Part shown: positions 29,807-43,158 of the stretch, one piece after another
Numbering within the stretch: the first letter of the stretch is position 1
How the letters are laid out: every line of letters begins with the position of its first letter
Origin: a virus
DNA: 64,000 bases
IMG/VR virus record: IMGVR_UViG_3300023174_000063
Direction: 5' to 3' (one strand)
The notes under the pieces: model-generated
The model's input: only the letters and a program-made list of their open reading frames with translations
What the model was told of the DNA's origin: nothing
The model's database searches: none
Position numbers and translations under genes: made by a program

Positions 29807-30175
29807 ATGTCAGATCGATTTGACGAAATGTACGACCAGCAACGTGATTTCAACCAGCTACTGCATGAGCATCGTGGACAGCCTGCATTTCCACTAGATC
29901 TCAAGACAAAGCAGAACCAGCAGTATTTGAAGTCTCTCACACATGAGTGCATGCATGAGCTTTTTGAAGCAAATCTCCTGCTGAAAAACAGCAAGAAGCA
30001 TCGTGCAACAATCGTCGAAGATTTTGATCGTGAGTCCTACAAGGAAGAGCTCTGTGATGCACTGCATTACCTCCTGGGTATTGTCGTGTATTCTGGCATT
30101 TCTAAGGAAGAATTTTTCGAGGCCTACATGAAAAAAGGCCAGATCAATGTTGATCGTATCAAGAGCGGGTACTAA
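29807..30175 (+). CDS. All-alpha dimeric dUTPase/MazG-like nucleotide pyrophosphatase
   Basis: HELFEA...K.H...YKEELCDALHY..: ExxE/EExD metal-binding pattern. Confidence 0.8.
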   Translation: MSDRFDEMYDQQRDFNQLLHEHRGQPAFPLDLKTKQNQQYLKSLTHECMHELFEANLLLKNSKKHRATIVEDFDRESYKEELCDALHYLLGIVVYSGISKEEFFEAYMKKGQINVDRIKSGY

Positions 30176-30194
30176 ACCCTAAGGAGACCATCAA

Positions 30195-31154
30195 TTGTCT
30201 GATTCTAAGTTTGAGTCGCTTGTTAGTGCTCTGCTAGAGCAGCGTAAATTTTCAGATCTTTTCTATGACACCAAGAACATGTCTGAGTCGGAGCGAGAAG
30301 AGTCTTTGCGCCGACTAGCCTTGTGTGCACACACAGCTGTCTCAGACATCGTCTCTTCTGTCAACTTTAAGTCGCATCTCAAGACGCATCAGCATGTCGA
30401 CCATGCGAAGATGCTCTACAAGACAGTTGATCTTTTTAGGTACACATTGGCAGTACTCAATCTTTGGGATATTGACCCACAAAAGTTTGTAGATGCGTGT
30501 GATATCAAGAACAATTTTCTTCATATGCGTCACCGTTTAGATTCAGCGCCATGGGACGGTCGTCCTGTTGTTGTGTTTGATTGCGATGATGTAATTGCAA
30601 AGTTTAGAAGTCATTTTGATAATTTTCTCGAGAAGAAGTGGTCGATCCCACTAAACCCTGACTCTAACGAGTATTACAATAACGCAGGTCTTGTTGAGGC
30701 AGGTCTAAATCCCGAGATTGCATTTAGAGACTTCTTGAGCTCTGGGCAGATGCGAGAGCTTAAAGTAAATACAAATGTAGCAGACGCAATGAGAATTCTC
30801 TCTGATAGAGGTTACTGGATCCAAATTTTGACTGCTCGTCCTGCTGAGAGCCTTAATTGCTTCTATGACACATTTCACTGGATTGAAAAGAATGGAATTC
30901 CATGCAATGCCGTTGGATTTAGTTCTGAAAAGTACAGGTGGGTAAGCGAGCAACAGTTCTACATGGACGGCAAAATGGTCTGTGCAGTCGATGACTCTCC
31001 TAAGCATGCTGCCGAGTTTGCAGCGCATGGAGTGAAAGCCATAATGCCTGCTATGCCTTACAATGCACATGTCAAAAACTCTGACACGCTCGAGCGAGTA
31101 GACTTTTCTCTGCTGAGCGCTGATGAAATTGTCAAGCTTATTGTCGATCTTTAA
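30195..31154 (+). CDS. Fusion: degenerate MazG/dUTPase-like domain + HAD 5'(3')-deoxynucleotidase (NT5C-like)
   Basis: TTG start with AAGGAG; N-half parallels 29807 protein but lacks the acidic ligands; C-half has FDCDDVI, ILTAR, K, AVDDSP. Confidence 0.75.
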   Translation: MSDSKFESLVSALLEQRKFSDLFYDTKNMSESEREESLRRLALCAHTAVSDIVSSVNFKSHLKTHQHVDHAKMLYKTVDLFRYTLAVLNLWDIDPQKFVDACDIKNNFLHMRHRLDSAPWDGRPVVVFDCDDVIAKFRSHFDNFLEKKWSIPLNPDSNEYYNNAGLVEAGLNPEIAFRDFLSSGQMRELKVNTNVADAMRILSDRGYWIQILTARPAESLNCFYDTFHWIEKNGIPCNAVGFSSEKYRWVSEQQFYMDGKMVCAVDDSPKHAAEFAAHGVKAIMPAMPYNAHVKNSDTLERVDFSLLSADEIVKLIVDL

Positions 31155-31164
31155 TAGACTCTTT

Positions 31165-31193
31165 GTGTAAAATTCGAAGAGTTGTGCTACAAT
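31165..31193 (+). promoter_or_regulatory. Promoter GTGTAA-N17-TACAAT upstream of the ThyX-like gene
   Basis: Same boxes and spacer as at 24999 and 35356. Confidence 0.7.
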
Positions 31194-31214
31194 ATTAAAA
31201 AACGAGGAGTAGTG

Positions 31215-32195
31215 ATGCCAATTAATCATGATCTAGAGCCGATTGTTCTTCCTATGGAGCTTAAGTTTGGTCGTCCTGTCAAGACAGAATATCACAATGC
31301 ACTTGATGCACTCAAGGTTGAGCTTGTTGATGCGCCTACTCGACAGCAGGCTTGGAATGTTGCTTGGCACTTTGTAAAAGCCACATGGGCAGATCGACCT
31401 GATATTGACCCGGGTAGCGCAACACCGCATGAACTCTCTAAGAATCTTGAGGATGTCTTTGGTGGCAGGACTCTTCCTGCTCCAATGGAGTGCCTAGGCT
31501 TCACCTTCCGGCTAAGCGGTCTATCCTTCCAGGACGTAACCCACATTATTCGTCACCGTGCTGGAACATTTGCGGCACAGTGTACGGGCGACAGAGACCT
31601 GAGAGATGACGATGCTGTAATTCCCGAGCCGGTGCAAAACTCGCCAGAGTTTCTCGAGCGCTGGAAGAAGATCGTCGATGAATCGAAGCAGCTTTATGCT
31701 GATATGACAGACTCGAAGGTCGTCTCGATGATGGATGCTCGCCTCATTCTTCCAAAGTGCATGACGTCTTTCTACTATATGCGTCTGCCACTCAAGGATC
31801 TCATCGGCTTTATCTACCAGCGCCAGGATAGGCAGATTCAAACAGCTGCCGACAATATCCTTGCAGTCAGAATGGCAGTTGAAGTTGCAAAGGTTTTGCC
31901 CGAGTTTACAGCTCTCGTCGACTTCAATAAGCCCGATATGCACTACATTAAGACATTCCGAGTCAAGGAGGGCGATAAGTTTGTATCTCGTGGTACAAAC
32001 CTCTACTGGCCTGAGCCCAAGAATGATAAGTTCGACTTTCACCCTGAGGACACGATCTATCAATGTAGGAGAGAAGAGCTTAATGGAACACACGGCGACG
32101 GTGAACAGAAGAAGTTCCTCCAGCACTGGAACAGCGGTGTCGCAGAGTTTGATGAGATTAAGACAAATTACGCATCATGGAAGGCAGGTAAGTAA
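31215..32195 (+). CDS. thyX: Atypical flavin-dependent thymidylate synthase (ThyX/Thy1)-like protein
   Basis: PMEC.GFTF; HIIRHRAGTFAAQCTGDR; DARLILP; GFIYQR; start moved to ATG 31215 after GAGGAG SD. Confidence 0.8.
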   Translation: MPINHDLEPIVLPMELKFGRPVKTEYHNALDALKVELVDAPTRQQAWNVAWHFVKATWADRPDIDPGSATPHELSKNLEDVFGGRTLPAPMECLGFTFRLSGLSFQDVTHIIRHRAGTFAAQCTGDRDLRDDDAVIPEPVQNSPEFLERWKKIVDESKQLYADMTDSKVVSMMDARLILPKCMTSFYYMRLPLKDLIGFIYQRQDRQIQTAADNILAVRMAVEVAKVLPEFTALVDFNKPDMHYIKTFRVKEGDKFVSRGTNLYWPEPKNDKFDFHPEDTIYQCRREELNGTHGDGEQKKFLQHWNSGVAEFDEIKTNYASWKAGK

Positions 32196-32659
32196 TGAGT
32201 TTCGAAAGAAAGCAGTCAGTCTATCTCGCTAGCGGTTGGTTTTCTCCCGACCAGGACAAACAGCTCACAAAGCTCGAGAAGCTCTTTGATGATCGTTCAA
32301 GCTGGATTAATCTTGCATCTCCTCGTCGAATCTTTGTCTGCCCGCCTGACGCATCTCTTGAGGTGCAAGACAATGTTTTCAAGGGCAACATGAAGCATAT
32401 CAGAGAGTGCGATTTTACTCTTGTCAATACAACTTATCGTGATATTGGCACGATTTGGGAAGCCGGCGCTGCATTTGCGCTTGATCGAAAGATCATTTAC
32501 TTTTGTGAGAACCTGCCTGCCGGCGCAAAGTTCAATCTAATGCTTTCACGAAGCGGAATTAAGGTTTGTACAACTTTTGAACAACTTGAAGACTACCTCA
32601 ATCGATGTGAAGCAGCAGGTGAGCTTCTATATGAGCCGTACGACAAGGAAATTGAGTGA
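32195..32659 (+). CDS. Nucleoside 2-deoxyribosyltransferase / dNMP N-glycosidase (NDT/DNPH1/MilB family)
   Basis: VYLASGWFS; SP; DIGTIWEAG (catalytic Glu); FNLML. Confidence 0.85.
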   Translation: MSFERKQSVYLASGWFSPDQDKQLTKLEKLFDDRSSWINLASPRRIFVCPPDASLEVQDNVFKGNMKHIRECDFTLVNTTYRDIGTIWEAGAAFALDRKIIYFCENLPAGAKFNLMLSRSGIKVCTTFEQLEDYLNRCEAAGELLYEPYDKEIE

Positions 32660-32713
32660 GATTCGTCGATCTAAAACTGATCACAAAGTGCTATTGAACA
32701 CAGGAGATGGTAG

Positions 32714-33697
32714 ATGAACGTTTTTATCACAGGACATAATGGATTTATCGCTATCAATCTTGTGAGCGCCTTCAAAAGACTTGGTCATAAAGTCATTAAT
32801 TTTAATGAGGCACGAAATCGTCTCATCACAAACAGCAAGGGAGAGCCATGTGTCTATCAAAATAGCGAAGATGCATGGCACCAATTTTTTCTAGACACAA
32901 AGACTGATGTTATTGTGCACAATGCAGCGCTAGTAGGCACTGATGTTGTGGCACTAAACCCAGAAGAATCTACACTGAGCAATGTCATGGGTACTCACAC
33001 AATTTGTCGCGTCGCACGAAAAGCTTCTATCCCTGTGTGCTATCTGGGCACATCAGTCATCTATGACACTCCTAAGTACCAGAACGCTGCGATTACTGAG
33101 AGAAGTGAACAGCGTCCAGGCACTTTTTATGGGGTACAGAAGTTGGCCGGAGAACATATAGTCATGTCAACTGCGTCTGAGTGGCTCATCATGCGACCAC
33201 TTTTTGCTTATGGCGGCTTAGGCGATATGAACTCTCTTCCTGCAAAGACATTTTATGCACAGCATCGAGGCGTTGCCAGCATTCCAATGTTTCTAGATCC
33301 TGAAAAGTCAAAAGACTACATGCATGTTGAAGACTTTTGTGATGCAGTTGCGCTAGGGTGCGATGCAGGTCTTTGGCAGCAAGATTTTAATATTTCAGCT
33401 GAGCTGCCACTCAAGACAGGTGAAATCGTCAACCTGATGTCGTCTGTTTGTGGCCATGACTTGGAAAAGATTATTAAGTGGCACCCAGAGACGGATTACC
33501 TTGGAAATCATATTCTTTCATCAGAAAAATTTAGGAAAGCTACTACTTGGACACCTAAATTTACATTAGCCAAAGGGCTGAAGCAGTCATGGGAAAGTAT
33601 CCTCGGCGCCTCTAGTCAGTACAACCCTCTGACGTATTTGGATGAAGCTGAAAAAAGAGGAGTGGATCTAGTTCAATATTTTCCAAAGAGTACGTGA
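32714..33697 (+). CDS. NAD-dependent epimerase/dehydratase (extended SDR)
   Basis: ITGHNGFIA; HNAA; GTSVIY; YGVQK (YxxxK); DYMHVED. Confidence 0.88.
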   Translation: MNVFITGHNGFIAINLVSAFKRLGHKVINFNEARNRLITNSKGEPCVYQNSEDAWHQFFLDTKTDVIVHNAALVGTDVVALNPEESTLSNVMGTHTICRVARKASIPVCYLGTSVIYDTPKYQNAAITERSEQRPGTFYGVQKLAGEHIVMSTASEWLIMRPLFAYGGLGDMNSLPAKTFYAQHRGVASIPMFLDPEKSKDYMHVEDFCDAVALGCDAGLWQQDFNISAELPLKTGEIVNLMSSVCGHDLEKIIKWHPETDYLGNHILSSEKFRKATTWTPKFTLAKGLKQSWESILGASSQYNPLTYLDEAEKRGVDLVQYFPKST

Positions 33698-33951
33698 ATG
33701 TGTCAAGATATCAACTAGAAGATGTGTTCCCAGTAGGCACTCTTCTTAAGCTTAGAGAAAAATATTCAGTACCAGAAAAATATCGCATAGGCCCGCCCAC
33801 GATATTTCTTGTTGTTGAATTGCTAGTTAGCCCAAATTCTCGTCGCCCCAATGACTCAGAGGTTGTGCTTCTTGCAGGTCAGGAAATTGTTAAATTTCCT
33901 ATCGGTACCTGCCTTGATGTTTTTGAAACTGTCTCTCATGAGACGCAATAA
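33694..33951 (+). CDS. Small hypothetical protein (SH3/KOW-like beta pattern)
   Basis: 4-nt overlap with the SDR gene; FPVGTLLKL...IFLVVE...VVLL. Confidence 0.6.
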   Translation: MNVSRYQLEDVFPVGTLLKLREKYSVPEKYRIGPPTIFLVVELLVSPNSRRPNDSEVVLLAGQEIVKFPIGTCLDVFETVSHETQ

Positions 33952-33970
33952 TTAAGAGAGGTCTAAATTA

Positions 33971-34249
33971 ATGCGCAATAAGCCTTGTAAAAATTGTAGC
34001 TGTACGCCACAAGAGAGCAGCACATGTCCTACGTGTGAGCTAATACTCAGCGAGTATATGTTCGCTGAAAATGAGACTCTCACCAAAGATGCGATGTTGC
34101 TGAAAATTTCAGCTCTACAGCTTGAGGTTTCAAGGCTTCTTGATCTAATAGGCCGCAAAGATCCCGTTAGATGTCCTTCTTGCAATGAAATTCGTGAGCG
34201 CCTAGAAAAAACATGCGGTAATTGTTTACACGAATTAGGCACGCTATAA
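33971..34249 (+). CDS. Cys-rich protein with four CxxC motifs (double zinc-ribbon-like)
   Basis: CKNC, CPTC, CPSC, CGNC flanking a helical linker; GAGG SD. Confidence 0.65.
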   Translation: MRNKPCKNCSCTPQESSTCPTCELILSEYMFAENETLTKDAMLLKISALQLEVSRLLDLIGRKDPVRCPSCNEIRERLEKTCGNCLHELGTL

Positions 34250-34279
34250 TCATTTTTTTATATCAGAATAGTGTAGAGA

Positions 34280-34286
34280 ATATTTA
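34280..34286 (+). promoter_or_regulatory. Putative late promoter motif ATATTTA
   Basis: Upstream of the 34324 gene, which carries the LAG tag. Confidence 0.45.
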
Positions 34287-34323
34287 CGCAGTATGACTAC
34301 TCTGCTGTGTGAGGAATTAAGCA

Positions 34324-35076
34324 ATGAAACTCTATCATGTTACGCCCGTTGAAAATGCCAAAAGTATTATTAAGACCGGAACGAAAAATAACACTAAACA
34401 CAAATTTAACCGTGGTGCTTTTTATTTTTTTTGTAGCTTGAGACATGCAATAAGTCATGCCGTCGCTGAGGAAAATGAACACCGCGGAAAAAACCTATGT
34501 ATACTGCAATTTGAAATGGAGCCAGACCCTGCAAATTTCAATATTGACACTGAAGCTAGTTACGAGTTTATTCACGCCTGGATCCGAAAGAATTCAGAAG
34601 AAATTTCTAGAGTTACCGGTTATAAATTAATGGAGCCGGCTAGTAAATTAACCGATAAATTTTCAGATGATCGAGAAGCGCCCCGATGGTTGTATAACCC
34701 AGACCCAAATAGACCTCCATCGGACCCGCGCTACGCCGCGCGCGGCCTCGTCGGCATGTCGTCGACGTACGACATAAAAATACCGCCCGACGACCCTTTT
34801 TTTTCTGCAAAAAAGGAAGACGCCGTAAAGGACAGATTATATGCATTTATTAGTAGCTTTCCACAGCTAGAGGCGTCAATGGAAAAATTTGCATTTGATC
34901 ACCCCCGGGTACGTAATGGTGAAGTTAGGCTAGCACTTGCATATTTTGGTCCGCCAGTCTTTCCAGAGAAAGTATTGTCACCCGAGGGAGCTGAAATACA
35001 GCTGCAGCAAGAAGGGTTTGCTAGCAGAAAAATAGTCGTTGAAAGATGGCAGCGTCTAGCTGGAATCTTAAAGTAG
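34324..35076 (+). CDS. ADP-ribosyltransferase-fold-like protein with C-terminal RWQRLAGI tag
   Basis: MKLYHVT....SIIKTG...GAFYF...A..HA is the HxT/YF pattern of PARP/Tpt1-like ART folds; ends IVVERWQRLAGILK. Confidence 0.5.
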   Translation: MKLYHVTPVENAKSIIKTGTKNNTKHKFNRGAFYFFCSLRHAISHAVAEENEHRGKNLCILQFEMEPDPANFNIDTEASYEFIHAWIRKNSEEISRVTGYKLMEPASKLTDKFSDDREAPRWLYNPDPNRPPSDPRYAARGLVGMSSTYDIKIPPDDPFFSAKKEDAVKDRLYAFISSFPQLEASMEKFAFDHPRVRNGEVRLALAYFGPPVFPEKVLSPEGAEIQLQQEGFASRKIVVERWQRLAGILK

Positions 35077-35099
35077 ACATAATAAAACGCAAGGATCAT

Positions 35100-35330
35100 A
35101 TGAAAATTTGGGAGAGACATATTGAATTGATGAAGAGCGAGCGCAAAGAAAGAGAAAAGCTTTTAGAGCCACTTCGCGAAAAGTATGATGCTCTTTATCG
35201 CGCTTTGCAAGCAGAATGCTCTCAGATTGGACACGAATGGCATTTTAGTCACTTTAATGTGGGATCTGATGCATGCTATAAGTGCAATTTTTGCGGCGTA
35301 GGCAGAGTTGAAAAGCGCTCAGTGGAGTAG
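35100..35330 (+). CDS. Hypothetical protein, coiled coil plus CxxxxH/CxxC Zn motif
   Basis: ATG 35100 after AAGGA; ECSQIGHEW...YKCNFCG. Confidence 0.65.
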   Translation: MKIWERHIELMKSERKEREKLLEPLREKYDALYRALQAECSQIGHEWHFSHFNVGSDACYKCNFCGVGRVEKRSVE

Positions 35331-35355
35331 TAAATTTACTAAAAGCCTACACGTC

Positions 35356-35384
35356 GTGTAATGATTTGCTTTGCATGCTACAAT
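35356..35384 (+). promoter_or_regulatory. Promoter GTGTAA-N17-TACAAT
   Basis: Recurrent motif; TGn extended -10. Confidence 0.7.
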
Positions 35385-35402
35385 TAGCCTTAGAGGTAGA
35401 TT

Positions 35403-35630
35403 ATGACATGTCACTGCGGTGAGAGCGGTTACTATCATTGCTCTGAACTCAGAGCCAGCCTAGATGAAGCAAAGAAGCTGATCAAACTAATTGTTGGATC
35501 AGGTTGTCTAGAAGGCTGGAACAAAGATCGTCCTGAAGAATTTGCACAGGACATTTATACAGAATGCGAAAGAGTCTTGTCTCTTCCCACAGAGATTCAA
35601 AGCTGCAACGAAGAAGACGAACACGTCTAA
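35403..35630 (+). CDS. Hypothetical protein
   Basis: GAGGT SD; downstream of promoter. Confidence 0.65.
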   Translation: MTCHCGESGYYHCSELRASLDEAKKLIKLIVGSGCLEGWNKDRPEEFAQDIYTECERVLSLPTEIQSCNEEDEHV

Positions 35631-35641
35631 GGAGGTTCTCT

Positions 35642-35923
35642 ATGAGCGGCGGACATTTTAATAGTCATGGGTACATTTACTACCGAGTCAGAGAATTTGC
35701 AGATGAGCTTGAGAACGATATTGAAAACAACGACAAGGAAGACGAGTGTGGTTACGCTCCCAGGTTTAGCGAAGAGACTCTTGCAATATTGAGAGAAAAT
35801 GTTGAGCTCTTGAGGGCAGTCGCCGAACGAATGCGTCATATCGATTACCTGTACTCAGGCGATCACGGAGAAGACTCTTTTAAAGAACACATGAATGAAT
35901 TGGCCTCTCGCGGAGATTCATGA
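35642..35923 (+). CDS. Hypothetical protein (MSGGHF...DYLYSGD..EDSF type)
   Basis: AAGGAGG SD before ATG 35642. Confidence 0.75.
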   Translation: MSGGHFNSHGYIYYRVREFADELENDIENNDKEDECGYAPRFSEETLAILRENVELLRAVAERMRHIDYLYSGDHGEDSFKEHMNELASRGDS

Positions 35924-36434: not shown

Positions 36435-39400
36435 ATGTCGTTTGACAGTGCAGCTCTACAAAATCTCTTGAAAATTTCACCGCCCAAGAACTTTACAGGG
36501 CTCCATTCACACTCGTCGTTTTCGACGTTCGATGGGCTCGGTTATCCAAAGGATCACATCGAGTTCATCACTAGCGAAGCACAGGGCATGGACTCGTGGG
36601 CACTGACTGACCACGGCAACGGCTCAGGCCTCGCACACGCTCGAGCTGCTGCTGTTAAGAAGCAAAAGTCAGGCAAGAAGTATCGCCAGCTTTACGGCGT
36701 TGAGTTCTATTTTGTTCCCTCACTTGATGAGTGGCAAAAGCAGATAGATGCCCACCAGCAGTCTGTAAAGGACGCAAAGTCTTCTCGCGAGGCACAGCTC
36801 CTCGCTGAGTCTCCCACAATCATCAAGCCTGCCGACGAGGATGATGAGCAGGGCGGTCACGTTATTGAAAACGAGGAGGAGACAAAGGAATCGAAGACAG
36901 ACAAGCCCGAGTGGAAGCGATACTACCACCTTGTTGTCATCGCCAAAAACAGAGTGGGTCTCGGCAATCTCTTCACGCTCGTAAAGAAGTCATTCAAGCA
37001 CGGCTTCTACCGATTCCCGAGAATCGATTATAAGATGTTGAAAGAGCACGGCGAAGGTCTTGTCGTCAGCACGGCATGTGTTGGCGGCCTTCCATCGTCG
37101 CTTATCTACCGCGAGTTTGCCGGCAAGTCTTTCAATGAACTTACGCCTGATCTCTTGACAGGACCTGCTGCAGAGGCTGCCGTCAAGAATATTCGCGGAC
37201 GTCTTGATAATATGGCAGATCGTTTTGTTGACTGCGTCGGCCGTGACAATTTCTTCCTGGAACTCCAGTTTAACGATCTTCCTGCACAGCATCTGACAAA
37301 TCAGTGTCTCATCGAGCTTTCGCAGCGCACAGGTCTTCCTCTTGTCGCAACGGCTGACTCACACTTCCCGTCTCCTGACAAGTGGCAGGCACGTGAGCTC
37401 TACAAGAAGCTTGGCTGGATTGGCGCAAAGCTTGACAAGACCATGATTCCCAAGCTCGAAGACATGAAGACGATGTTGTACCCGAAGAATGCCGAGCAGA
37501 TGTGGGAAGAGTTTAAGAAGGGCTACACACAGTACTCCTTCTATCAGGGTCATGAAGAACTAGTTCGTGATGCAATCGAGCGCACACACGATATTGCTTG
37601 GCAGAAGTGCGAAGACACCTGGGTCGACACCAGCGTCAAGCTCCCAATTCACCGCTTCGAGGACAAGACACCATTTCAGCGCCTTGTTGAGCTTGCAAAG
37701 GACCATCTCGCCCAGGAAGGTCTTGCTGACAATCCCGTCTATGTTGAGCGTCTCAAGGAGGAGCTTTCTGACATCAAGCATCTTGGTCATGAATCGTACT
37801 TCCTTACGATGTACGAGGTCTTCAAGCGCGCTGAGAAGCGTACGCTTATGGGTCCTGGTCGTGGCTCTGCTGCTGGTTCACTTCTAAACTTCCTGCTCGG
37901 CATCACACAGTTTGACCCACTTCCTTACGGTCTGCTTTGGGGTCGTTTTCTTGGGCGCTGGCGCGTCTCATATCCCGATATCGACACTGACGCTGCCAAT
38001 CGTGACATTCTTATTGATTCTGCACGAGAGCTCTACGGCGATGATGCGGTCATTCCAGTATCTAACTTCAATACTCTCAAGCTGAAGTCTCTGATCAAGG
38101 ACATCTCTAAGTTCTATGACGTGCCCTTCGAGGAGGTGAATGCCATGACTGGTCCCCTCCAGGACGAGGTCATGCCTCACGCTCGAGATGACGACCAGGA
38201 GAAGTCTGTGTTCGTCTTGAAGCACGAGGACTGCATGAAGTACTCAGAGGGCTACAGAACCTTCATGGAGAAATATCCTGACGTTGCGGCGCACGTAGAA
38301 ACGCTATTCATGGAGAATAGAAGCATCGGTCGTCACGCTGGCGGCGTCATTCTTGCAGATCCCACCGCGCTTGAGCAGTCAATGCCAATCATCAGTGTGC
38401 GCGGTGAACTCCAGACGCCGTGGACCGAGGGCATGAACTTTCGCAATCTTGAGGACAATGGATTCTTGAAGTTTGACTTCTTGGGTCTCACTCTCTTGAA
38501 GGACGTCGAGGACTGCATTGCTCGAATTCTGCGTCGTAGAGGCAATAAGAATCCCACCTTTGCGGACGTTAAGGCTTTCTTTGACGAGAACATTAACTGC
38601 CGCTATCACAAGCTTGACGACCCTGCTGTCTACAAGCACGTCTATCACCAGCGTCGCAAGACGGGCGTATTTCAGTTTACCAACGAGGGGGCTAGAAAGC
38701 TCTGTGAGGAGGCGCGCCCTTCATCCATCGAAGAGGTTGCAGCTATTACAGCAATTTATCGGCCGGGCCCCCTCAAGGCAAATGTGCACAGAAAGTACAT
38801 CAAGGCTCGTGAGGAGTTCGGCGCAGGTCGAATGAAGTTTGATCATCCTATTATTGAAGAAATTCTAGGACCTACTGCTGGATTCTTAATCTATCAGGAG
38901 CAGTTCATGGAGTTGGCTCGACGTCTGGGCGGCTTTACGAACGCAGAGTCAGATCAGCTTCGCAAGACTCTTGTTAAGAAGTCGCTGGATACTCTCGACA
39001 AGAAGGGTTCTGAGAAGGAGCTAGCAAAGCAGAAGTTCATCGAGGGCGCGCAGAAGCTCCACGGGTTGAGTCCTGCCATTACAGAGCCGCTCTGGCAGAC
39101 AATCGATTTCATGTCTGTATACTGCTTCAATAAGTCTCACAGCGTTTCTTATGCAATTGATTCTTACTACGCTGCATGGTTCCACACGCACTATGAGACT
39201 GATTGGCTGGCAACTTGTCTACAATCTGAGAATAATAATCCTGACGGTCTAGAGAAGACGATCACAGAGATTAAGTCGTACGGCTACAAGTTCATGCAAT
39301 CAGACATCAACTATTCAGGTGATGTGTGGATGTATTCTAATGAGCTCCAAGCATTTATTCCGCCTCTCAGCTCTGTCAAGGGTGTAGGAACCACTGCCAT

Positions 39401-40109
39401 GGAAGAAATCATGAAGAATCGTCCTTACAAGAATCTTGATGATCTTCTCTACGATGCGAGTGGTGAGTGGCGACACTCTAAGGTCAATAAGACTGCCATG
39501 CGATCACTCTGCCTTATCGAGGCTTTCTCCTCGCTTGAAGAGCTGAAGAGCGGTCGAATTAGAAATCATAGGCAGCTTTTGGCTCTCCTGACAGATGAGA
39601 AGAACTATGACACTCTTCGCAAGGGTCGCTTTGGATTGTCTCCAACACAGATCAAGAAGCTGCAGAAGAGCGGCGAGGTTGTTGTACCCATCATTGATAA
39701 GCTTATTGAGACTTACGAGGGGCTGCCCGACTGGAGTCGAACTGAGAAGCTTAAGAATCTCATGGAGATGACGTCCAGTGTCAGCAATGACCTGCTCTTC
39801 CCATCATCGTTAATGCGCAAAGTGAAAGAGAAGTCAGTGCCTTCAGTCTTTCAAATTCCAGGGGGTACAAAGGGCATTGGTTGGTTCTGCGTGACGGAAG
39901 TTCACCAGAAGTCAACCAAGAACGGAAAGAGCTTTTTGCGCCTTAGAATAATTGACAATGAGAATAATTCGACATGGCTGCGCTGCTGGGGCAAGTTTGA
40001 AGAAACACCGGATGAGTTCTCTCTCTGGATCGGTGAAATCGAAAATGACTCCAGCTGGGGCATGTCAACATCTTCCTGGAAGATTAAGCAGCTCAAGGCA
40101 TTTGAGTAA
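36435..40109 (+). CDS. dnaE: DNA polymerase III alpha subunit (family C)
   Basis: PHP motifs LHSHSSFS..DG, TDHG, DSH; GPGRGSAAGS; PDIDTD; GRHAGG; KFDFLGL; YQEQFM; FNKSHSVSY; C-terminal OB fold. Confidence 0.97.
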   Translation: MSFDSAALQNLLKISPPKNFTGLHSHSSFSTFDGLGYPKDHIEFITSEAQGMDSWALTDHGNGSGLAHARAAAVKKQKSGKKYRQLYGVEFYFVPSLDEWQKQIDAHQQSVKDAKSSREAQLLAESPTIIKPADEDDEQGGHVIENEEETKESKTDKPEWKRYYHLVVIAKNRVGLGNLFTLVKKSFKHGFYRFPRIDYKMLKEHGEGLVVSTACVGGLPSSLIYREFAGKSFNELTPDLLTGPAAEAAVKNIRGRLDNMADRFVDCVGRDNFFLELQFNDLPAQHLTNQCLIELSQRTGLPLVATADSHFPSPDKWQARELYKKLGWIGAKLDKTMIPKLEDMKTMLYPKNAEQMWEEFKKGYTQYSFYQGHEELVRDAIERTHDIAWQKCEDTWVDTSVKLPIHRFEDKTPFQRLVELAKDHLAQEGLADNPVYVERLKEELSDIKHLGHESYFLTMYEVFKRAEKRTLMGPGRGSAAGSLLNFLLGITQFDPLPYGLLWGRFLGRWRVSYPDIDTDAANRDILIDSARELYGDDAVIPVSNFNTLKLKSLIKDISKFYDVPFEEVNAMTGPLQDEVMPHARDDDQEKSVFVLKHEDCMKYSEGYRTFMEKYPDVAAHVETLFMENRSIGRHAGGVILADPTALEQSMPIISVRGELQTPWTEGMNFRNLEDNGFLKFDFLGLTLLKDVEDCIARILRRRGNKNPTFADVKAFFDENINCRYHKLDDPAVYKHVYHQRRKTGVFQFTNEGARKLCEEARPSSIEEVAAITAIYRPGPLKANVHRKYIKAREEFGAGRMKFDHPIIEEILGPTAGFLIYQEQFMELARRLGGFTNAESDQLRKTLVKKSLDTLDKKGSEKELAKQKFIEGAQKLHGLSPAITEPLWQTIDFMSVYCFNKSHSVSYAIDSYYAAWFHTHYETDWLATCLQSENNNPDGLEKTITEIKSYGYKFMQSDINYSGDVWMYSNELQAFIPPLSSVKGVGTTAMEEIMKNRPYKNLDDLLYDASGEWRHSKVNKTAMRSLCLIEAFSSLEELKSGRIRNHRQLLALLTDEKNYDTLRKGRFGLSPTQIKKLQKSGEVVVPIIDKLIETYEGLPDWSRTEKLKNLMEMTSSVSNDLLFPSSLMRKVKEKSVPSVFQIPGGTKGIGWFCVTEVHQKSTKNGKSFLRLRIIDNENNSTWLRCWGKFEETPDEFSLWIGEIENDSSWGMSTSSWKIKQLKAFE

Positions 40110-40118
40110 AACTAAATT

Positions 40119-40147
40119 TTGTACACATCGAGTGCATTGTGTATAAT
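40119..40147 (+). promoter_or_regulatory. Promoter TTGTAC-N17-TATAAT
   Basis: Upstream of the kinase/TS fusion; variant of the recurrent class. Confidence 0.65.
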
Positions 40148-40167
40148 ACGTTGAATCCAACAAGGAG

Positions 40168-41133
40168 ATGTTCATAATGCTGAACTTGAAGTGCATTACT
40201 ATTGAGGGCCCTGACTGCGCCGGCAAGAGCTCTCTCTATAATGATATTCATCGAGAAACTAGCTTTAGATGGAATATTCAAGACAGAGGTCAGCTAAGCA
40301 TGGTTTGCTATGCTAGACTCTATGAACGAGGTAGTGAAATAGTTGATCATTGGCGCGCAGAACTTCATGAGTACCTTAAAAATCTAAATCAACGTCTAAT
40401 TGTGCTTCTGCCGCCTCTTCGTGTGCTACACCAGCGCCTGGAGTCACGAGGCGACCCCATGCAGAATGCAGAGTCCCTGTCTAAACTTTACGAGATATTT
40501 GATGACGAGCTTAAGATTTTGCACGCTGAAGATCTGCCTAATGTGTTGGTTATTAGAGGCGAAAATTCCCTAGATGAAAACGTTAAGCATTGCCTGTCAT
40601 GGTTGGCGCATGCGGGCATTTCCACTGCTAGAAATATTGCCAGCGACGTAGAGGCTGCAGTATTTGCATCACCTAAGAATGAAATATGTGGTTTAAATTT
40701 TGAACTCAATTTCAAGAGCGGCACCGCCGAGTTTCAGGCGCTGGAGAATCCAGCAGTAATGCAGTATCTGCCAGAAGAGGTGTATTACTCTGAAATACTG
40801 TCAAAAGTTTTAAAGAATATTGACGACGAAATCAATGGTAGAAATCCTTACTCACGCCCTGAGAACCCGCGGAGTACGCGCCGTTTTATCTTTGCGCAAG
40901 ATAGCTGCATTTCTACTATTCATACAATGATTCGCGACGATTCGATGACAATGAAGGTCTACTGTAGATCATCAAATGTTACCAATACATTTCCCCATGA
41001 TCTAGGATTTATCTGCTATCTTTTCACTAGAGTTTATCATCATTTATTTCACCGTACGCTATGGCGACCAACAAATTGCTCTCTGCGAGTAGAGATTGGA
41101 TCTGCACATTTACCCGCAATGGCGGGCCACTAA
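40168..41133 (+). CDS. Fusion: dNMP (thymidylate-type) kinase + truncated thymidylate-synthase/dCMP-hydroxymethylase-like domain
   Basis: ITIEGPDCAGKS, DRGQLS..Y, LESRGD (kinase); STRRFI..DSCISTIHTMIRD..MKVYCRSSNVTNTFPHD...GSAHL (TS fold); start 40168 or 40177. Confidence 0.75.
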   Translation: MFIMLNLKCITIEGPDCAGKSSLYNDIHRETSFRWNIQDRGQLSMVCYARLYERGSEIVDHWRAELHEYLKNLNQRLIVLLPPLRVLHQRLESRGDPMQNAESLSKLYEIFDDELKILHAEDLPNVLVIRGENSLDENVKHCLSWLAHAGISTARNIASDVEAAVFASPKNEICGLNFELNFKSGTAEFQALENPAVMQYLPEEVYYSEILSKVLKNIDDEINGRNPYSRPENPRSTRRFIFAQDSCISTIHTMIRDDSMTMKVYCRSSNVTNTFPHDLGFICYLFTRVYHHLFHRTLWRPTNCSLRVEIGSAHLPAMAGH

Positions 41134-41152
41134 TATTACTGGGAGTAACGCT

Positions 41153-42178
41153 ATGCATGTTTTAGTCACAGGTGGCGCAGGTTTTATTGGCAGCAATCTT
41201 GTTCACGCTCTTGTCCAAAAAGGCTGGATCGTCGACGTTATTGATGATTTAAGCAGTGGTAATTTAGATAATCTTGCAGGTCTAGAGACAAGGTTTTTGA
41301 CGACTAATATCCTGCATTTCTATGAGGAGAATGTAGAGTCAGGTGACCATAAAAAAGTTCGTTTTATTACTGGAGACTTTGCAAATCTCAATGTTCTTCG
41401 ACGCATAGAGGCTGGAAAATATCGCTATATCTTCCATCTAGCTGCAGTACCTAGAGTTGGTTTTAGTGTTCAATTTCCTGCAGAAACCGCAGAAACTAAT
41501 CTTTTAAAGACAATCAAGCTTTTTGAATCTGCTTCAAAGTCTGGATCTTGTCGTGTTATTTTCTCTTCGTCATCTTCTGTGTACGGCAACGCATCTGTCA
41601 GACCCACGCCTGAGTCCATTACAAAGCACCCGAGGTCGCCATATGCGCTACAGAAACTACACTGCGAAGATTATGCACGTCTTTTTAGAGAACTTCACGG
41701 ATTAGATTTTGTTGCGCTTCGATATTTTAATGTCTATGGGCCTCGACAGTTTGGCAACTCTCCTTACGCAACCGCCATCTCAGCTTGGTGCACTGCAGTT
41801 CACACAGGAAAGCCGCTTCGAAGCGACGGCGACGGCACACAGTCTAGAGATCTCACGTATGTCGATGACGTAGTAGAAGCAAATATTAAGGCAGCATTGG
41901 CTGGAGCATCATGTTCAGGAGAGAGCTATAATATTGCTGCCGGTAAGCCTGTTTCAAATCTCAAGATTCTCGAGGCGTTTCGAGATCGTTACGGAGATAA
42001 AGTCACTATAACAAAAGCACCTTGGCGCCCCGGCGACGTGATGCATACAGAGGCCGACCCTATGAAGGCACGGCTACAACTAGGATTTACGTGCAGTGTA
42101 GACTTTGACACTGGTCTGCGCAAGACATTTGAATGGTGGGATAATATTGTGCGCCTGGAGGAAGAAAATCATGCTTGA
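41153..42178 (+). CDS. NDP-sugar epimerase/dehydratase (GalE/WbpP-like SDR)
   Basis: VLVTGGAGFIGS; HLAA; SSSSVYG; SPYALQK; LRYFNVYGPRQ; GDGTQSRDLTYVDDVV. Confidence 0.92.
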   Translation: MHVLVTGGAGFIGSNLVHALVQKGWIVDVIDDLSSGNLDNLAGLETRFLTTNILHFYEENVESGDHKKVRFITGDFANLNVLRRIEAGKYRYIFHLAAVPRVGFSVQFPAETAETNLLKTIKLFESASKSGSCRVIFSSSSSVYGNASVRPTPESITKHPRSPYALQKLHCEDYARLFRELHGLDFVALRYFNVYGPRQFGNSPYATAISAWCTAVHTGKPLRSDGDGTQSRDLTYVDDVVEANIKAALAGASCSGESYNIAAGKPVSNLKILEAFRDRYGDKVTITKAPWRPGDVMHTEADPMKARLQLGFTCSVDFDTGLRKTFEWWDNIVRLEEENHA

Positions 42179-42743
42179 TGAATTTACAGACCCAGAATTT
42201 ATTATTTTTACAGGACCCATGTGGGGGTCTAAAACAACGAGAATGTTGGCAGCTGTCGATAGATATCGATATCAAAAGCGCAGCATTGTTGCTTTTAAGC
42301 CCGTGATGGATGCTCGATATTCAGAACAAGAGATTAGGACACACTCGGGGGGCAGTCTTCCTGCTGTAGGTGTTAATACAGGGCATGATATCGAAGAGTA
42401 TCTGAGACAACTGGCAGTTAAGACTGATGTTGTAGCAGTCGATGAGGCATTCATGATCGATGGGTCTGCTGAGACACTTGTAAGACTCTTTAGGTCGGGC
42501 AAGACAATTGTTGTCTCTTCTCTCCAGCTTTCCGCTAGCGGCAACGTTTTTACGGAGATTAGAGACATGATGCCATGGGCAACTCGCATTGAGGTTTGCC
42601 CAGCAGTCTGCCCATTAACAGGCAGAGATGCTTACTACACGCATCGCAAAGTAGATGGGCTTAGTGAAATCACTGTAGGAGGCTCTGAGCTCTATGAGCC
42701 TAGGTGCTGGCGCTACCACTCTTATATGAACTTGCGAGACTGA
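42171..42743 (+). CDS. tdk: Thymidine kinase
   Basis: TGPMWGSKTT; FKPVMDARY; VAVDEAF; AVC; VGGSELYEPRC. Confidence 0.88.
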   Translation: MLDEFTDPEFIIFTGPMWGSKTTRMLAAVDRYRYQKRSIVAFKPVMDARYSEQEIRTHSGGSLPAVGVNTGHDIEEYLRQLAVKTDVVAVDEAFMIDGSAETLVRLFRSGKTIVVSSLQLSASGNVFTEIRDMMPWATRIEVCPAVCPLTGRDAYYTHRKVDGLSEITVGGSELYEPRCWRYHSYMNLRD

Positions 42744-42744
42744 T

Positions 42745-43158
42745 ATGACACAGAGAGTTCGTCCAAGTTGGGATAGTGTTTGGATGAAGATGGCTGAGAC
42801 AATTGCGCAGCGGTCACACGATAATCGCTGTCAAGTTGGCGCTGTTGTAGTGACGAGCGACAACACGCAAGTGCTGTCAGTCGGTTATAACGGAAATTAT
42901 GCAGGAGGGCCTGATTGCTCAGAATCAGAAGAACCAGGCATGTCAGGACTTTTGCATGCAGAAATTAATGCTCTCCTTAAACTTGATTACAACAATCCTA
43001 AGAAAAAGATTTTGTATGTAACAATGTCACCTTGCGCAATGTGCGCTAAGGCAATTGTCAATGCCGGCATCAATGAAGTAGTCTACTCGCTAGTCTATAG
43101 AGATCTCCAGTGTTTTAAGATTTTAGATGACGCAGGTGTTATTATAAGAAAAATTTAA
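42745..43158 (+). CDS. dCMP deaminase
   Basis: VGAVVV..VGYNG; HAEINA; SPCAMC. Confidence 0.92.
   Translation: MTQRVRPSWDSVWMKMAETIAQRSHDNRCQVGAVVVTSDNTQVLSVGYNGNYAGGPDCSESEEPGMSGLLHAEINALLKLDYNNPKKKILYVTMSPCAMCAKAIVNAGINEVVYSLVYRDLQCFKILDDAGVIIRKI

What the first reader, a model, noticed from the sequence alone, without database searches (positions are those of the whole stretch)
29807..43158. Candidate undescribed pyrimidine hypermodification pathway in two clusters flanking dnaE
Seen: cluster 1 is dUTPase/MazG, pseudo-MazG+HAD nucleotidase, atypical ThyX, NDT-family N-glycosidase and an SDR. Cluster 2 is a dNMP kinase fused to a TS-fold domain, a second SDR, Tdk and dCMP deaminase. The phage's own family C polymerase lies between them. 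Established: phages that replace a base (T4 hmC, SPO1 hmU) combine a TS-fold base modifier, a dedicated dNMP kinase, a pyrophosphatase that removes the canonical dNTP, and their own polymerase. Both TS-type enzymes here have non-canonical active sites, and two sugar SDRs occur with no glycosyltransferase in the window. Inference: a C5-substituted pyrimidine is built at the nucleotide level. One speculative route is that NDT releases deoxyribose-5-phosphate (or an SDR makes a keto-sugar), the TS-fold domain condenses it at C5, and the SDR/ThyX flavoenzyme dehydrate and reduce it. That would give a polyol-chain base reminiscent of the dihydroxypentyl-uracil of phage SP-15.
Basis: partly seen in the sequence, partly recalled or inferred. 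Interest (0 to 1): 0.9.

Follow-up and report, generated by a model that had tools for sequence, protein, structure and literature searches.

The report
Phage kinase fused to mini thymidylate-synthase
An uncultured giant phage carries a conserved gene set that most likely replaces cytosine with a C5-modified cytosine before DNA synthesis; its key enzyme is a nucleotide kinase fused to a stripped-down thymidylate-synthase domain, a variant of a pathway type described only in 2025-2026.

Summary
The NDT protein looks like a transferase, and SDR2 looks like an NDP-sugar 4-epimerase.

The module order is MBD4-like, Nei/Fpg, MazG, pseudoMazG-HAD, ThyX-like, NDT, SDR1, DnaE, kinase-miniTS, SDR2, Tdk, dCMP deaminase. 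It is syntenic in 81 related IMG/VR contigs from phages of about 300 kb, none of them cultured.

The key gene (40177-41133) fuses a YorR/TMPK-like kinase to a minimal TS fold. That fold keeps the catalytic Cys, the RR and RS motifs, His and Glu58. It has Asp at the Asn177 position, which specifies cytosine. In this phage it also has Asn at Asp169, the published signature of flavin-dependent 5-hydroxy-dCMP synthases (RB69 gp48, AfhB). AfhB is the top structural match.

Split or stand-alone mini-TS genes recur in at least five other phage backbones. There they sit beside a kinase, a 5'-nucleotidase, a MazG and a ThyX-like gene, but never beside SDRs or Tdk.

The best reading is a T4/RB69-style pre-replicative cytosine modification. 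Its chemistry is unresolved, because the Asp169 position flips between close orthologues. The proposed sugar-condensation, SP-15-like route is not supported.

Other first-stage readers of this genome had already flagged the same stretch.

The parts
28206..28760 (+). MBD4-type HhH-GPD DNA glycosylase (mismatch-specific T/U/5-substituted-U:G type)
   Evidence: phmmer E 8e-42, about 50% identity over 136 aa to the mouse/human MBD4 glycosylase domain; PF00730
28753..29559 (+). Fpg/Nei-family DNA glycosylase/lyase
   Evidence: PF01149, PF06831, PF21025; TIGR00577 165.8 bits, below the equivalog cut-off; found in 10 related loci
29556..29798 (+). conserved small ORF (80 aa) of unknown function between Nei and MazG
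   Evidence: tblastn hits in 16 related loci at the same position; no Pfam hit
29807..30175 (+). all-alpha NTP pyrophosphatase (MazG/dimeric dUTPase type); candidate dCTPase/dUTPase
   Evidence: PF08761 26.9 bits, phrog_12184 E 3.5e-13; the acidic motifs are visible in the pairwise alignment
30195..31154 (+). degenerate MazG-like N-domain fused to an NT5C-type HAD 5'(3')-deoxyribonucleotidase
   Evidence: PF06941 27.5 bits over residues 123-296; FDCDDV, ILTAR and DD motifs intact; faint similarity to the neighbouring MazG; the L088 homolog hits dUTPase_2 + NT5C, both just below Pfam's cut-offs
31215..32195 (+). atypical long ThyX-family flavoprotein (326 aa)
   Evidence: PF02511 55 bits; AF2 model pLDDT 79, Foldseek TM about 0.7 to ThyX structures; invariant RHR..AQCTGDR and a conserved C-terminal extension
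32195..32659 (+). nucleoside 2'-deoxyribosyltransferase-family protein
   Evidence: PF05014 49 bits, phrog_7995; 6evs E 1e-11 with YLAS, WE.G and NLM motifs aligned
32714..33697 (+). extended SDR 1 (RmlD/epimerase-like); accessory, variable in relatives
   Evidence: PF01370 95.6 bits, PF04321 70.9 bits; below every NCBIfam equivalog cut-off; found in 37 of 81 loci
33694..36383 (+). lineage-specific insertion of nine small ORFs between SDR1 and DnaE; not part of the module
   Evidence: none of the eight ORFs used as tblastn queries hits any of the 81 related loci, where SDR1 abuts DnaE
36435..40109 (+). DnaE-type family C replicative polymerase
   Evidence: tblastn matches annotated as DnaE-like DNA polymerase III alpha in GenBank phages; PHP/DNA_pol3_alpha Pfam hits on the relative's gene in L001; present upstream of KinTS in 81 of 81 loci
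40177..40620 (+). KinTS N-domain: YorR/thymidylate-kinase-like dNMP kinase
   Evidence: VIA Z 14.5 to YorR 3kb2, Z 13 to TMPKs; profile hit to YorR E 4e-8; invariant GK, DR and RGD motifs
40621..41133 (+). KinTS C-domain: minimal thymidylate-synthase fold with a cytosine-type active site
   Evidence: Foldseek top hit is AfhB 9iqu, then TS, T4 dCH and MilA; profile hits T4 dCH E 0.004 and AfhB 0.05; RR235/236, C244, R264-S265, N267, D275, H311, E200
41153..42178 (+). extended SDR 2, NDP-sugar 4-epimerase type; accessory
   Evidence: PF01370 187.6 bits; GalE TIGR01179 161 bits (below cut-off); SSSSSVYG / YALQK / RYFNVYGPRQ motifs and no TDE; found in 54 of 81 loci
42105..42743 (+). thymidine kinase (Tdk)
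   Evidence: PF00265 102.6 bits; found in 70 of 81 loci
42745..43158 (+). dCMP deaminase
   Evidence: PF00383 83.9 bits, phrog_174 E 1e-44; found in 70 of 81 loci
46764..47447 (+). Fe/Mn superoxide-dismutase-like protein, conserved downstream neighbour (link to the pathway is speculative)
   Evidence: PF02777 55 bits; found in 60 of 81 loci

Best explanation
The region is the nucleotide-pool engineering module of an uncultured phage clade with genomes of about 300 kb.

Its distinctive branch is a pre-replicative cytosine modification of the T4/RB69 type.
1. A MazG-type pyrophosphatase returns dCTP (and dUTP) to the monophosphate.
2. The minimal TS-fold domain of KinTS attacks C6 of dCMP with Cys244 and installs a C5 substituent.
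3. The fused YorR/TMPK-like kinase phosphorylates the product.
4. Host NDK and the phage's own DnaE then put it into DNA.

In this phage the substituent is most likely hydroxyl, giving 5-hydroxy-dCMP as with RB69 gp48 and AfhB. Hydroxymethyl or something new is not excluded.

The other genes fit as follows.
- dCMP deaminase, the ThyX-like protein and Tdk supply dTMP.
- The HAD 5'-nucleotidase, NDT and Tdk recycle deoxyribose between bases.
- The MBD4-like and Nei/Fpg glycosylases repair deaminated or oxidised modified pyrimidines.
- The two SDRs are accessory NDP-sugar enzymes. They may feed later glycosylation of DNA or virion, but they do not take part in building the base.

What is shown: gene identities, folds, active-site residues, synteny and recurrence. 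What is inferred: substrate, product, cofactor, the specificity of MazG and the nucleotidase, and any role for the SDRs.
For: - KinTS model: pLDDT 93.6, pTM 0.89.
- C-domain: Foldseek probability 1.00 to TS-family chains. The top hit is the phage HY126 dCMP hydroxylase AfhB 9iqu, followed by T4 dCMP hydroxymethylase and MilA.
- Profile search: T4 dCH at E 0.004, AfhB at 0.05.
- Alignment with E. coli ThyA, T4 gp42 and RB69 gp48 places Glu58, RR126/127, Cys146, Arg166-Ser167 and His207. It puts Asp at Asn177 and Asn at Asp169.
- Cys, RS, Asp275 and His are invariant in 81-82 family members.
- N-domain: YorR Z 14.5. YorR is also the Foldseek top hit reported for the 'nucleotide kinase' DLP3 gp78, which sits two genes from its 5hodCMP synthase gp80. 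RB69 gp45 and RL38J1 gp214 are TMPK-like kinases in the same clusters as their synthases (PMC13326640, Table 1).
- That paper shows that Asn at position 169 plus Asp at position 177 predicted 5hodC producers in every homolog tested.
- Synteny in 81 loci: DnaE 81, Tdk 70, dCD 70, SDR2 54, NDT 49, ThyX 36 within +-10 kb.
- Independent recurrence in other backbones (L085-L090): miniTS with a kinase, NT5C-type HAD or YfbR-type HD nucleotidase, dUTPase_2/MazG, ThyX-like and dCD genes.
- An MBD4-type glycosylase lies immediately upstream.
Against: - No chemistry was measured.
- The Asp169-equivalent position is N in 39, D in 27 and E in 15 family members. It flips D/N between orthologues that are 85% identical. 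The published diagnostic therefore may not transfer to this family.
- The Leu143-equivalent residue is Gln here, not Asp/Glu.
- The domain lacks the equivalents of ThyA residues 66-120 and the C-terminal tail. Binding of either folate or flavin is unproven.
- L086 carries a conventional Asp-type ThyA homolog in addition to a mini-TS. The mini-TS may therefore do something other than what gp42/gp48-type enzymes do.
- No DNA glycosyltransferase lies near the module in the window or in relatives.
- Phage Fpg/Nei-type enzymes could attack unprotected 5hoC (my own knowledge of E. coli Nth/Nei/Fpg substrates).
Confidence: 0.55

Rival explanations
1. This is an ordinary dNTP supply and salvage module with no base replacement. 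dUTPase, dCMP deaminase, ThyX, Tdk, a TMPK-like kinase, NDT and a nucleotidase simply boost and rebalance dTTP and dNTP pools from host DNA breakdown. The mini-TS domain would be a nucleotide-binding or regulatory appendage of a thymidylate kinase, or a relic.
For: - Every gene except the mini-TS domain and the SDRs has a textbook role in thymidylate synthesis or salvage.
- Relatives insert other pool genes at the same spot: GMP reductase, phosphoribosyltransferases.
- Some metagenome annotators call the fusion 'thymidylate kinase'.
Against: - A relic or regulatory domain would not keep Cys244, Glu200, RR, RS, Asp275 and His311 invariant across 82 sequences that are only 30-45% identical.
- The domain also exists as a stand-alone gene.
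- Asp at the Asn177 position argues against dUMP/dTMP binding (PMC13326640).
Confidence: 0.22
2. Two-component reading. The atypical ThyX-like flavoprotein does not act only as a thymidylate synthase. It works together with the mini-TS, as a flavin reductase or carrier or as a one-carbon carrier. This would make up for the cofactor-binding parts that the mini-TS has lost, and the product would be a cytosine (or other pyrimidine) modification not yet described.
For: - A ThyX-like gene lies within 6 kb of the mini-TS in five of six independent contexts and is directly adjacent in L087 and L088.
- In L086, L088 and others the ThyX-like protein has RQR instead of RHR. L086 also has two conventional ThyA homologs, so a third thymidylate synthase seems redundant.
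- The window's ThyX-like protein lacks the His53 equivalent, has an invariant Cys in CTGDR, and has a conserved 90-aa extension.
- Its closest structures include the C. glutamicum ThyX that is not needed for thymidylate synthesis, and PolB.
- Superoxide dismutase-like and pterin-4a-carbinolamine dehydratase genes are conserved neighbours.
Against: - ThyX genes are common in phage replication modules, so adjacency may be coincidental.
- The window's protein keeps RHR and both substrate arginines, which fits a working dUMP methylase.
- dCMP deaminase and Tdk next to it make sense only if dTMP is made.
Confidence: 0.12
3. NDT or an SDR provides deoxyribose-5-phosphate or a keto-sugar, the TS-fold domain condenses it onto C5, and SDR/ThyX then reduce it to a polyol side chain like the dihydroxypentyluracil of SP-15.
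For: Two SDR genes sit inside the module in many relatives (SDR1 in 37 and SDR2 in 54 of 81 loci), and no glycosyltransferase was found in the window.
Against: - SDRs are absent from all six independent mini-TS contexts and from 21 of 75 close relatives that could be scored.
- SDR2 has epimerase motifs, not dehydratase motifs.
- NDT matches a true transferase.
- Asp275 points to cytosine, not uracil.
- No precedent exists for TS-fold aldol-type chemistry (my knowledge).
Confidence: 0.03

Closest known systems
5-hydroxy-dCMP synthases of the thymidylate-synthase superfamily (RB69 gp48, DLP3 gp80, RL38JI gp216; AfhB of phage HY126, PDB 9iqu/9iqc), together with the TMPK-like 'nucleotide kinase' in the same cluster (RB69 gp45, DLP3 gp78)
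   Same: - TS fold, and AfhB is the top structural match.
- Catalytic Cys, Asp at the Asn177 position and Asn at the Asp169 position in this phage.
- Loss of the Trp80/Trp83 folate contacts.
- A YorR/TMPK-like kinase partner (the shared GPDxxGKT P-loop aligns with gp45).
- A MazG-fold dNTP pyrophosphatase is encoded in the same genome.
   Different: - Here the kinase and the TS domain are one polypeptide.
- The TS domain is about 170 aa rather than 217-238 aa. It lacks the equivalents of ThyA residues 66-120 and the 128-143 loop.
- The Leu143 equivalent is Gln.
- The Asp169 equivalent varies (N/D/E) among orthologues.
- There are no adjacent sugar-activation genes or DNA glycosyltransferases.
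- Sequence similarity is marginal (hhalign probability 51%).
T4 hydroxymethylcytosine pathway (gp42 dCMP hydroxymethylase, gp1 dNMP kinase, gp56 dCTPase/dUTPase, cd dCMP deaminase, td, tk)
   Same: The pathway logic and gene set are the same: pyrophosphatase, Asp-type TS homolog, dedicated kinase, dCMP deaminase, a thymidylate synthase and thymidine kinase. gp42 is the best sequence-profile hit in the PDB (E 0.004).
   Different: - The folate-binding region is absent.
- ThyX stands in for ThyA-type td.
- The kinase is YorR/TMPK-like, not gp1-like.
- The polymerase is family C.
- No glucosyltransferases lie nearby.
- NDT, a HAD nucleotidase and repair glycosylases are added.
SPbeta prophage YorR (PDB 3kb2/2axp)
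   Same: YorR is the best structural and sequence match of the KinTS N-domain.
   Different: YorR carries no TS-fold domain; its function is not established.

Membership tests
Thymidylate synthase / dCMP hydroxymethylase superfamily (fold level) | TS alpha/beta fold with the central sheet carrying the catalytic Cys | tested here: met
   Foldseek probability 1.00 to more than 40 TS-family entries; AF2 pLDDT 93.6. Pfam PF00303 does not hit.
Thymidylate synthase / dCMP hydroxymethylase superfamily (fold level) | Catalytic residues: Cys146, Arg166-Ser167, Arg126'/127', Glu58, His207 | tested here: met
   C244, R264-S265, R235/R236, E200 and H311 align with them and are invariant or nearly so.
Folate-dependent TS / T4-type dCMP hydroxymethylase | Folate-binding elements: Ile79/Trp80/Trp83 segment, Asp169, C-terminal lid | tested here: not met
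   The equivalents of ThyA residues 66-120 and the C-terminal tail are absent. The Asp169 equivalent is Asn in the window's protein.
5hodCMP synthase (RB69 gp48 / AfhB type) | Asp at the Asn177 position (dCMP specificity) | tested here: met
   D275 is present in 81 of 81 aligned residues.
5hodCMP synthase (RB69 gp48 / AfhB type) | Asn at the Asp169 position (published diagnostic, PMC13326640) | tested here: inconclusive
   The window has N267. Across the family the residue is N in 39, D in 27 and E in 15, and it differs between orthologues that are 85% identical.
5hodCMP synthase (RB69 gp48 / AfhB type) | Acidic residue at the Leu143 position | tested here: inconclusive
   The window has Gln241. 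The family has D in 38, Q in 14, S in 14 and other residues in the rest. The alignment of this short loop is uncertain.
5hodCMP synthase (RB69 gp48 / AfhB type) | Bound flavin; O2-dependent hydroxylation of dCMP | not testable with these tools
   This needs protein spectroscopy and an activity assay.
5hodCMP synthase (RB69 gp48 / AfhB type) | Cluster context: dedicated nucleotide kinase, dCTPase, sugar-activation genes and DNA glycosyltransferases | tested here: inconclusive
   The kinase is fused and a MazG is present. No glycosyltransferase or sugar kinase/nucleotidyltransferase lies in the module or in relatives' inserts. GT4 genes lie about 100 kb away in relatives.
Flavin-dependent thymidylate synthase ThyX | ThyX fold | tested here: met
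   Foldseek TM 0.66-0.75 to ThyX structures (normalised by target length); PF02511 55 bits.
Flavin-dependent thymidylate synthase ThyX | ThyX motif RHRxxS...SxR and catalytic His53 (T. maritima numbering) | tested here: inconclusive
   RHR and the Arg147 and Arg174 equivalents are kept. The Ser88 region reads QCTGDR with one extra residue. The His53 equivalent is Cys/Leu/Ile/Thr. TIGR02170 scores 31.6 bits against a cut-off of 87.9.
Nucleoside 2'-deoxyribosyltransferase | Catalytic Glu in the D..GT.WE.G motif, N-terminal Tyr, NLM motif | tested here: met
   All three align with 6evs at E 1e-11. Activity was not tested.
MBD4 glycosylase domain | Full-length similarity to the MBD4 HhH-GPD catalytic domain | tested here: met
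   E 8e-42; residues 42-177 align with chain residues 11-146 of 1ngn. Substrate not tested.

The most novel reading that the evidence does not exclude
[quoted passage not shown] It has 422 cluster representatives in 1.84 billion proteins and none in 50,697 GenBank phage records. It has shed its own cofactor-binding region and works as a two-component system with the atypical ThyX-like flavoprotein. The product would be a cytosine modification not yet described, in a widespread clade of uncultured ~300-kb phages. Superoxide dismutase-like and pterin-carbinolamine dehydratase genes would manage the oxygen chemistry.
Probability: 0.13. Interest if true: 0.85.

Novelty: new variant of a known kind. 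Interest (0 to 1): 0.62.

Why it matters
Pre-replicative pyrimidine replacement by TS homologs is how phages such as T4 and RB69 become invisible to restriction enzymes and CRISPR nucleases.

This module suggests the same strategy operates in a large, uncultured clade of ~300-kb phages with family C polymerases. It uses an enzyme form that current annotation misses: there is no Pfam hit, and the protein is named 'thymidylate kinase' or 'hypothetical'.

- The kinase-TS fusion is a compact, directly testable two-step enzyme for making modified dCDP.
- Its minimal TS fold bears on an open question raised in PMC13326640: how this superfamily switched from a folate cofactor to a flavin cofactor.
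- If the DNA is modified, abundance estimates and host predictions for these phages from standard metagenomes may be biased.

Tried and rejected
- Megablast of the whole region against GenBank phages found no match.
- tblastn of KinTS against 50,697 phage records found no match.
- tblastn of stand-alone mini-TS proteins found nothing, or only E 4e-3 hits to Bacteroides phage ThyA. No cultured relative with known DNA chemistry was found.
- No whole genome is held for the window. The glycosyltransferase cluster that another first-stage reader reported about 74 kb upstream could not be examined.
- Complex prediction for ThyX-like + mini-TS gave no verdict.
- The He et al. 2026 AfhB paper is not held, so the flavin-contact residues could not be compared.
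- The VIA second look listed only kinase-domain matches, so no Z-scores for the TS domain alone were obtained.
- An alignment of 15 stand-alone mini-TS proteins was too diverse for a locus scan. A subset found only 4 loci.
- X-HAD was considered as a sugar-bisphosphate phosphatase like RB69 gp51/AfhF. This was rejected as less likely. Similarity to gp51 is limited to generic HAD motifs. The Pfam hit is NT5C. A YfbR-type 5'-deoxynucleotidase occupies the equivalent place in L087.
- The NDT protein was considered as a DNPH1/MilB-type nucleotide N-glycosidase. This was not favoured, because the only strong structural relative by sequence is a true transferase.

Full report
**What is there**

The window is a single-strand (+) run of phage genes at 40-50% G+C. 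Pfam and PHROG scans identify a replication and nucleotide block:
- a family A polymerase fragment, gp32-like SSB, RecA, FEN, DnaB and class I/II RNR;
- topoisomerase II subunits, then the region of the finding;
- further on, GroEL and a sigma-70.

No whole genome is held. The window's own contig is 149,872 bp. CheckV estimates for related IMG/VR contigs are 147 kb = 44% complete and 284 kb = 100% complete. That puts genome size near 300 kb. Nothing in 50,697 GenBank phage records resembles the region at DNA level. The DnaE is under 30% identical to any cultured phage protein.

**Check of the observation**

- MazG/dUTPase_2 is at 29807-30175.
- An NT5C-type HAD with intact DxD, T and DD motifs is at 30195-31154. 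It sits behind a degenerate MazG-like domain. The pairwise similarity to the neighbouring MazG is faint and the acidic residues are replaced. A homolog in L088 hits both dUTPase_2 and NT5C, both just below Pfam's cut-offs.
- A ThyX-family protein is at 31215-32195.
- An NDT-family protein is at 32195-32659.
- An extended SDR is at 32714-33697.
- DnaE is at 36435-40109.
- The kinase-TS fusion is at 40168/40177-41133.
- A second extended SDR is at 41153-42178.
- Tdk and dCMP deaminase follow.

- The NDT protein aligns with a genuine nucleoside deoxyribosyltransferase (6evs, E 1e-11), with the Tyr, catalytic Glu and NLM motifs in register. This does not suggest a nucleotide N-glycosidase.
- SDR2 has SSSSSVYG, YALQK and RYFNVYGPRQ motifs and no TDE triad. 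That is the pattern of NDP-sugar 4-epimerases (my knowledge of the SDR subfamilies). Its best NCBIfam model is GalE, though below the cut-off.

**The key gene**

I collected 66 homologs of the fusion, 33-83% identical and almost all 295-320 aa. The AlphaFold model built on them is confident: pLDDT 93.6, pTM 0.89.

The N-domain is a YorR/thymidylate-kinase fold. VIA gives Z 14.5 to 3kb2 and Z about 13 to TMPKs. The profile hits YorR at E 4e-8. The GK, DR and RGD motifs are invariant.

The C-domain is a thymidylate-synthase fold.
- Foldseek gives probability 1.00 to TS-family chains. The top-ranked one is 9iqu, the dCMP hydroxylase AfhB of phage HY126. TS, T4 dCMP hydroxymethylase and MilA follow, with E-values within a factor of five of each other.
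- The sequence profile reaches T4 gp42 at E 0.004 and AfhB at 0.05.
- hhalign against RB69 gp48 aligns the Cys strand, the RS motif and the SAH motif.

A MAFFT alignment with E. coli ThyA, T4 gp42 and RB69 gp48 places the following residues:
- E200 on Glu58;
- R235/R236 on Arg126/127;
- C244 on Cys146;
- R264-S265 on Arg166-Ser167;
- N267 on Asp169;
- D275 on Asn177;
- H311 on His207.

The equivalents of ThyA residues 66-120 (with Trp80, Trp83 and Tyr94), the 128-143 loop and the whole C-terminal lid are missing.

In 82 family members the Cys, RS, Asp275 and His are invariant. Position 267 is N in 39, D in 27 and E in 15. The Cys-3 position (Leu143) is D in 38, Q in 14, S in 14 and other polar residues in the rest.

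**What is known**

Lee et al. (NAR 2026, PMC13326640) showed that RB69 gp48, DLP3 gp80 and RL38JI gp216 convert dCMP to 5-hydroxy-dCMP. These are TS homologs with Asp at position 177 and Asn at position 169.
- The enzymes carry a loosely bound flavin, and O2 is the oxygen source.
- Asn169 predicted the activity in nine further homologs.
- The hydroxyl is then glycosylated on DNA.
- In each cluster a TMPK-like 'nucleotide kinase' lies in the same cluster as the synthase (RB69 gp45, DLP3 gp78, RL38JI gp214). DLP3 gp78's top Foldseek hit is YorR 3kb2, the same as for the KinTS N-domain.
- The paper cites He et al. (Nat Chem Biol 2026) for the AfhB structure and mechanism. That paper is not held.

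By the published rule, the window's protein (Asp275, Asn267) is therefore a predicted 5hodCMP synthase, fused to its kinase.

**Why I stop short of calling it that**

- Position 267 flips between D and N in orthologues that are 85% identical (P0015 and P0017). It flips between E and N at 74% identity, inside the same syntenic module. Either the residue is not decisive in this stripped-down scaffold, or close relatives make different products.
- The domain is about 50-70 residues shorter than AfhB or gp48.
- One other phage (L086) has a mini-TS in addition to a conventional Asp-type ThyA homolog and an Asn-type one. This suggests a non-redundant activity.

The chemistry (hydroxyl, hydroxymethyl, methyl or something new) therefore stays open.

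**Context evidence**

A pattern scan of IMG/VR found 131 relatives, of which 80 loci were fetched. Together with L001 these make 81 loci.

tblastn with the window's proteins gives the same order in these 81 loci: [MBD4-like]-Nei-o80-MazG-XHAD-ThyX-NDT-SDR1-DnaE-KinTS-SDR2-Tdk-dCD-...-SOD-like. Within +-10 kb of KinTS the counts are DnaE 81, Tdk 70, dCD 70, SOD-like 60, SDR2 54, NDT 49, SDR1 37, ThyX 36, MazG 20 and XHAD 20. The last six counts are limited by the flank length.

The nine small ORFs at 33694-36383 are a lineage-specific insertion. In relatives SDR1 abuts DnaE, so the 'two clusters flanking dnaE' are really one module.

Shared ancestry could explain this synteny, so I looked for independent occurrences. 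A profile of the C-domain alone found 422 cluster representatives (E <= 1e-3) among 1.84 billion proteins. These include stand-alone proteins of 165-230 aa. Their contexts are:
- L086 and L089: NT5C HAD, kinase, miniTS (a split KinTS), beside a ThyX-like gene.
- L087: kinase, NDT, YfbR-type HD 5'-deoxynucleotidase, ThyX (QCSGD type, E 6e-93 to the window's family), miniTS, family B polymerase.
- L088: a dUTPase_2~NT5C fusion, then ThyX-like, miniTS, DnaE.
- L085: dCMP deaminase, unknown gene, miniTS, HAD, dUTPase_2.
- L090: dCD, miniTS, kinase-like, MazG, DnaE, ThyX-like.

The recurring core is therefore mini-TS + kinase + 5'-nucleotidase + MazG + ThyX-like, with dCMP deaminase in two contexts and NDT in one. 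No SDR and no Tdk appears in any of these contexts.

SDR2 is also absent from 21 of the 75 close relatives whose flanks reach Tdk or dCD, and is replaced by an N6/N4 methyltransferase in L001. Inserts at the same spot in other relatives are a GMP reductase, phosphoribosyltransferases, a third SDR and a cytochrome c peroxidase. None is a glycosyltransferase. GT4 genes exist in three of five large relatives, but about 100 kb away.

**The ThyX-like protein**

It belongs to a very conserved family. In the word-index search of 5.8 billion proteins, 1009 proteins matched, and the 120 best are 76-92% identical. It has the ThyX fold.
- It keeps RHR and the equivalents of Arg147 and Arg174.
- It reads AQCTGDR where canonical enzymes have SxR.
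- It lacks the His53 equivalent.
- It has a conserved but poorly modelled 90-aa extension.

'Atypical' is a fair description. Nothing shows that it is not a dUMP methylase, and the neighbouring dCMP deaminase and Tdk argue that dTMP is made. Its persistent adjacency to the mini-TS, including RQR variants in phages that already have ThyA homologs, leaves room for a coupled role. A complex prediction gave no verdict.

**Mechanism proposed**

Steps 1-3 are inferred from homology. None was measured.
1. MazG hydrolyses dCTP (and dUTP) to the monophosphate.
2. The mini-TS domain forms the Cys244-C6 adduct on dCMP, positioned by Asp275, Arg264/Ser265 and the RR pair of a partner subunit. It then transfers an electrophile to C5.
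3. The fused kinase makes the diphosphate.
4. Host NDK and the phage DnaE complete incorporation.

In parallel:
- dCMP deaminase, ThyX-like and Tdk make dTMP.
- The HAD nucleotidase, NDT and Tdk move deoxyribose between bases.
- The MBD4-type glycosylase (E 8e-42 to mammalian MBD4) and the Nei/Fpg enzyme would remove deaminated or oxidised 5-substituted pyrimidines opposite G. This role fits a genome rich in 5-substituted cytosine, though it is also compatible with general repair.
- The SDRs are best seen as accessory NDP-sugar enzymes. A link to DNA glycosylation is possible, since known 5hoC clusters include an epimerase (PMC13390438), but it is not shown here.

**Verdict**

The broad inference is supported and can be narrowed to cytosine. 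The sugar-condensation route is not supported.

In kind this is a known strategy, described in 2025-2026. In form it is a new variant:
- a fused kinase and minimal TS domain;
- a family C polymerase phage clade with no cultured member;
- an unresolved cofactor and product.

Other first-stage readers of this scan had already flagged the fusion, the ThyX motif, the MazG pair and the MBD4-like gene on this same genome. I tested those points myself here.

Noticed in passing
window 28206-28760: A phage gene about 50% identical to the catalytic domain of mammalian MBD4 (E 8e-42). It overlaps the start of an Fpg/Nei gene. MBD4-type glycosylases are mainly known from eukaryotes.
   Followed up: partly
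window 51769-52173: A pterin-4a-carbinolamine dehydratase (PF01329, 45.5 bits). It is conserved 7-10 kb downstream of KinTS in at least 26 related loci. Together with the SOD-like gene (46764-47447) and a di-haem cytochrome c peroxidase inserted in L029, it forms a recurring set of oxygen and pterin chemistry genes beside the module.
   Followed up: partly
L086:1081-8609: One uncultured phage locus carries four TS-type genes: an Asn177-type ThyA homolog, an Asp-type ThyA homolog, a ThyX-like protein with RQR in place of RHR, and a split kinase + mini-TS pair with an NT5C nucleotidase.
   Followed up: partly
window 33694-36383: A 2.7-kb block of nine small ORFs between SDR1 and DnaE. None of the eight tested by tblastn has a counterpart in 81 related loci. 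It includes a 250-aa ORF with no Pfam or PHROG hit, which another reader called ART-like.
   Followed up: no
window 55617-57779: A 720-aa protein with only a weak N-terminal cytidylyltransferase/NMNAT-like match (phrog_395 E 1e-5; PF01467 below cut-off). The rest is unknown.
   Followed up: no
window 226-12273 and 43241-46198: Four very large ORFs (1509, 1271, 1057 and 985 aa) with no Pfam hit. The 985-aa one also has no PHROG hit.
   Followed up: no
L028:11896-12966, L055:11948-12985, L023:11912-12466, L001:10942-11733: Relatives insert different genes at the KinTS-Tdk junction: GMP reductase, phosphoribosyltransferases and an N6/N4 DNA methyltransferase. This junction is a hot spot for gene exchange.
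   Followed up: partly
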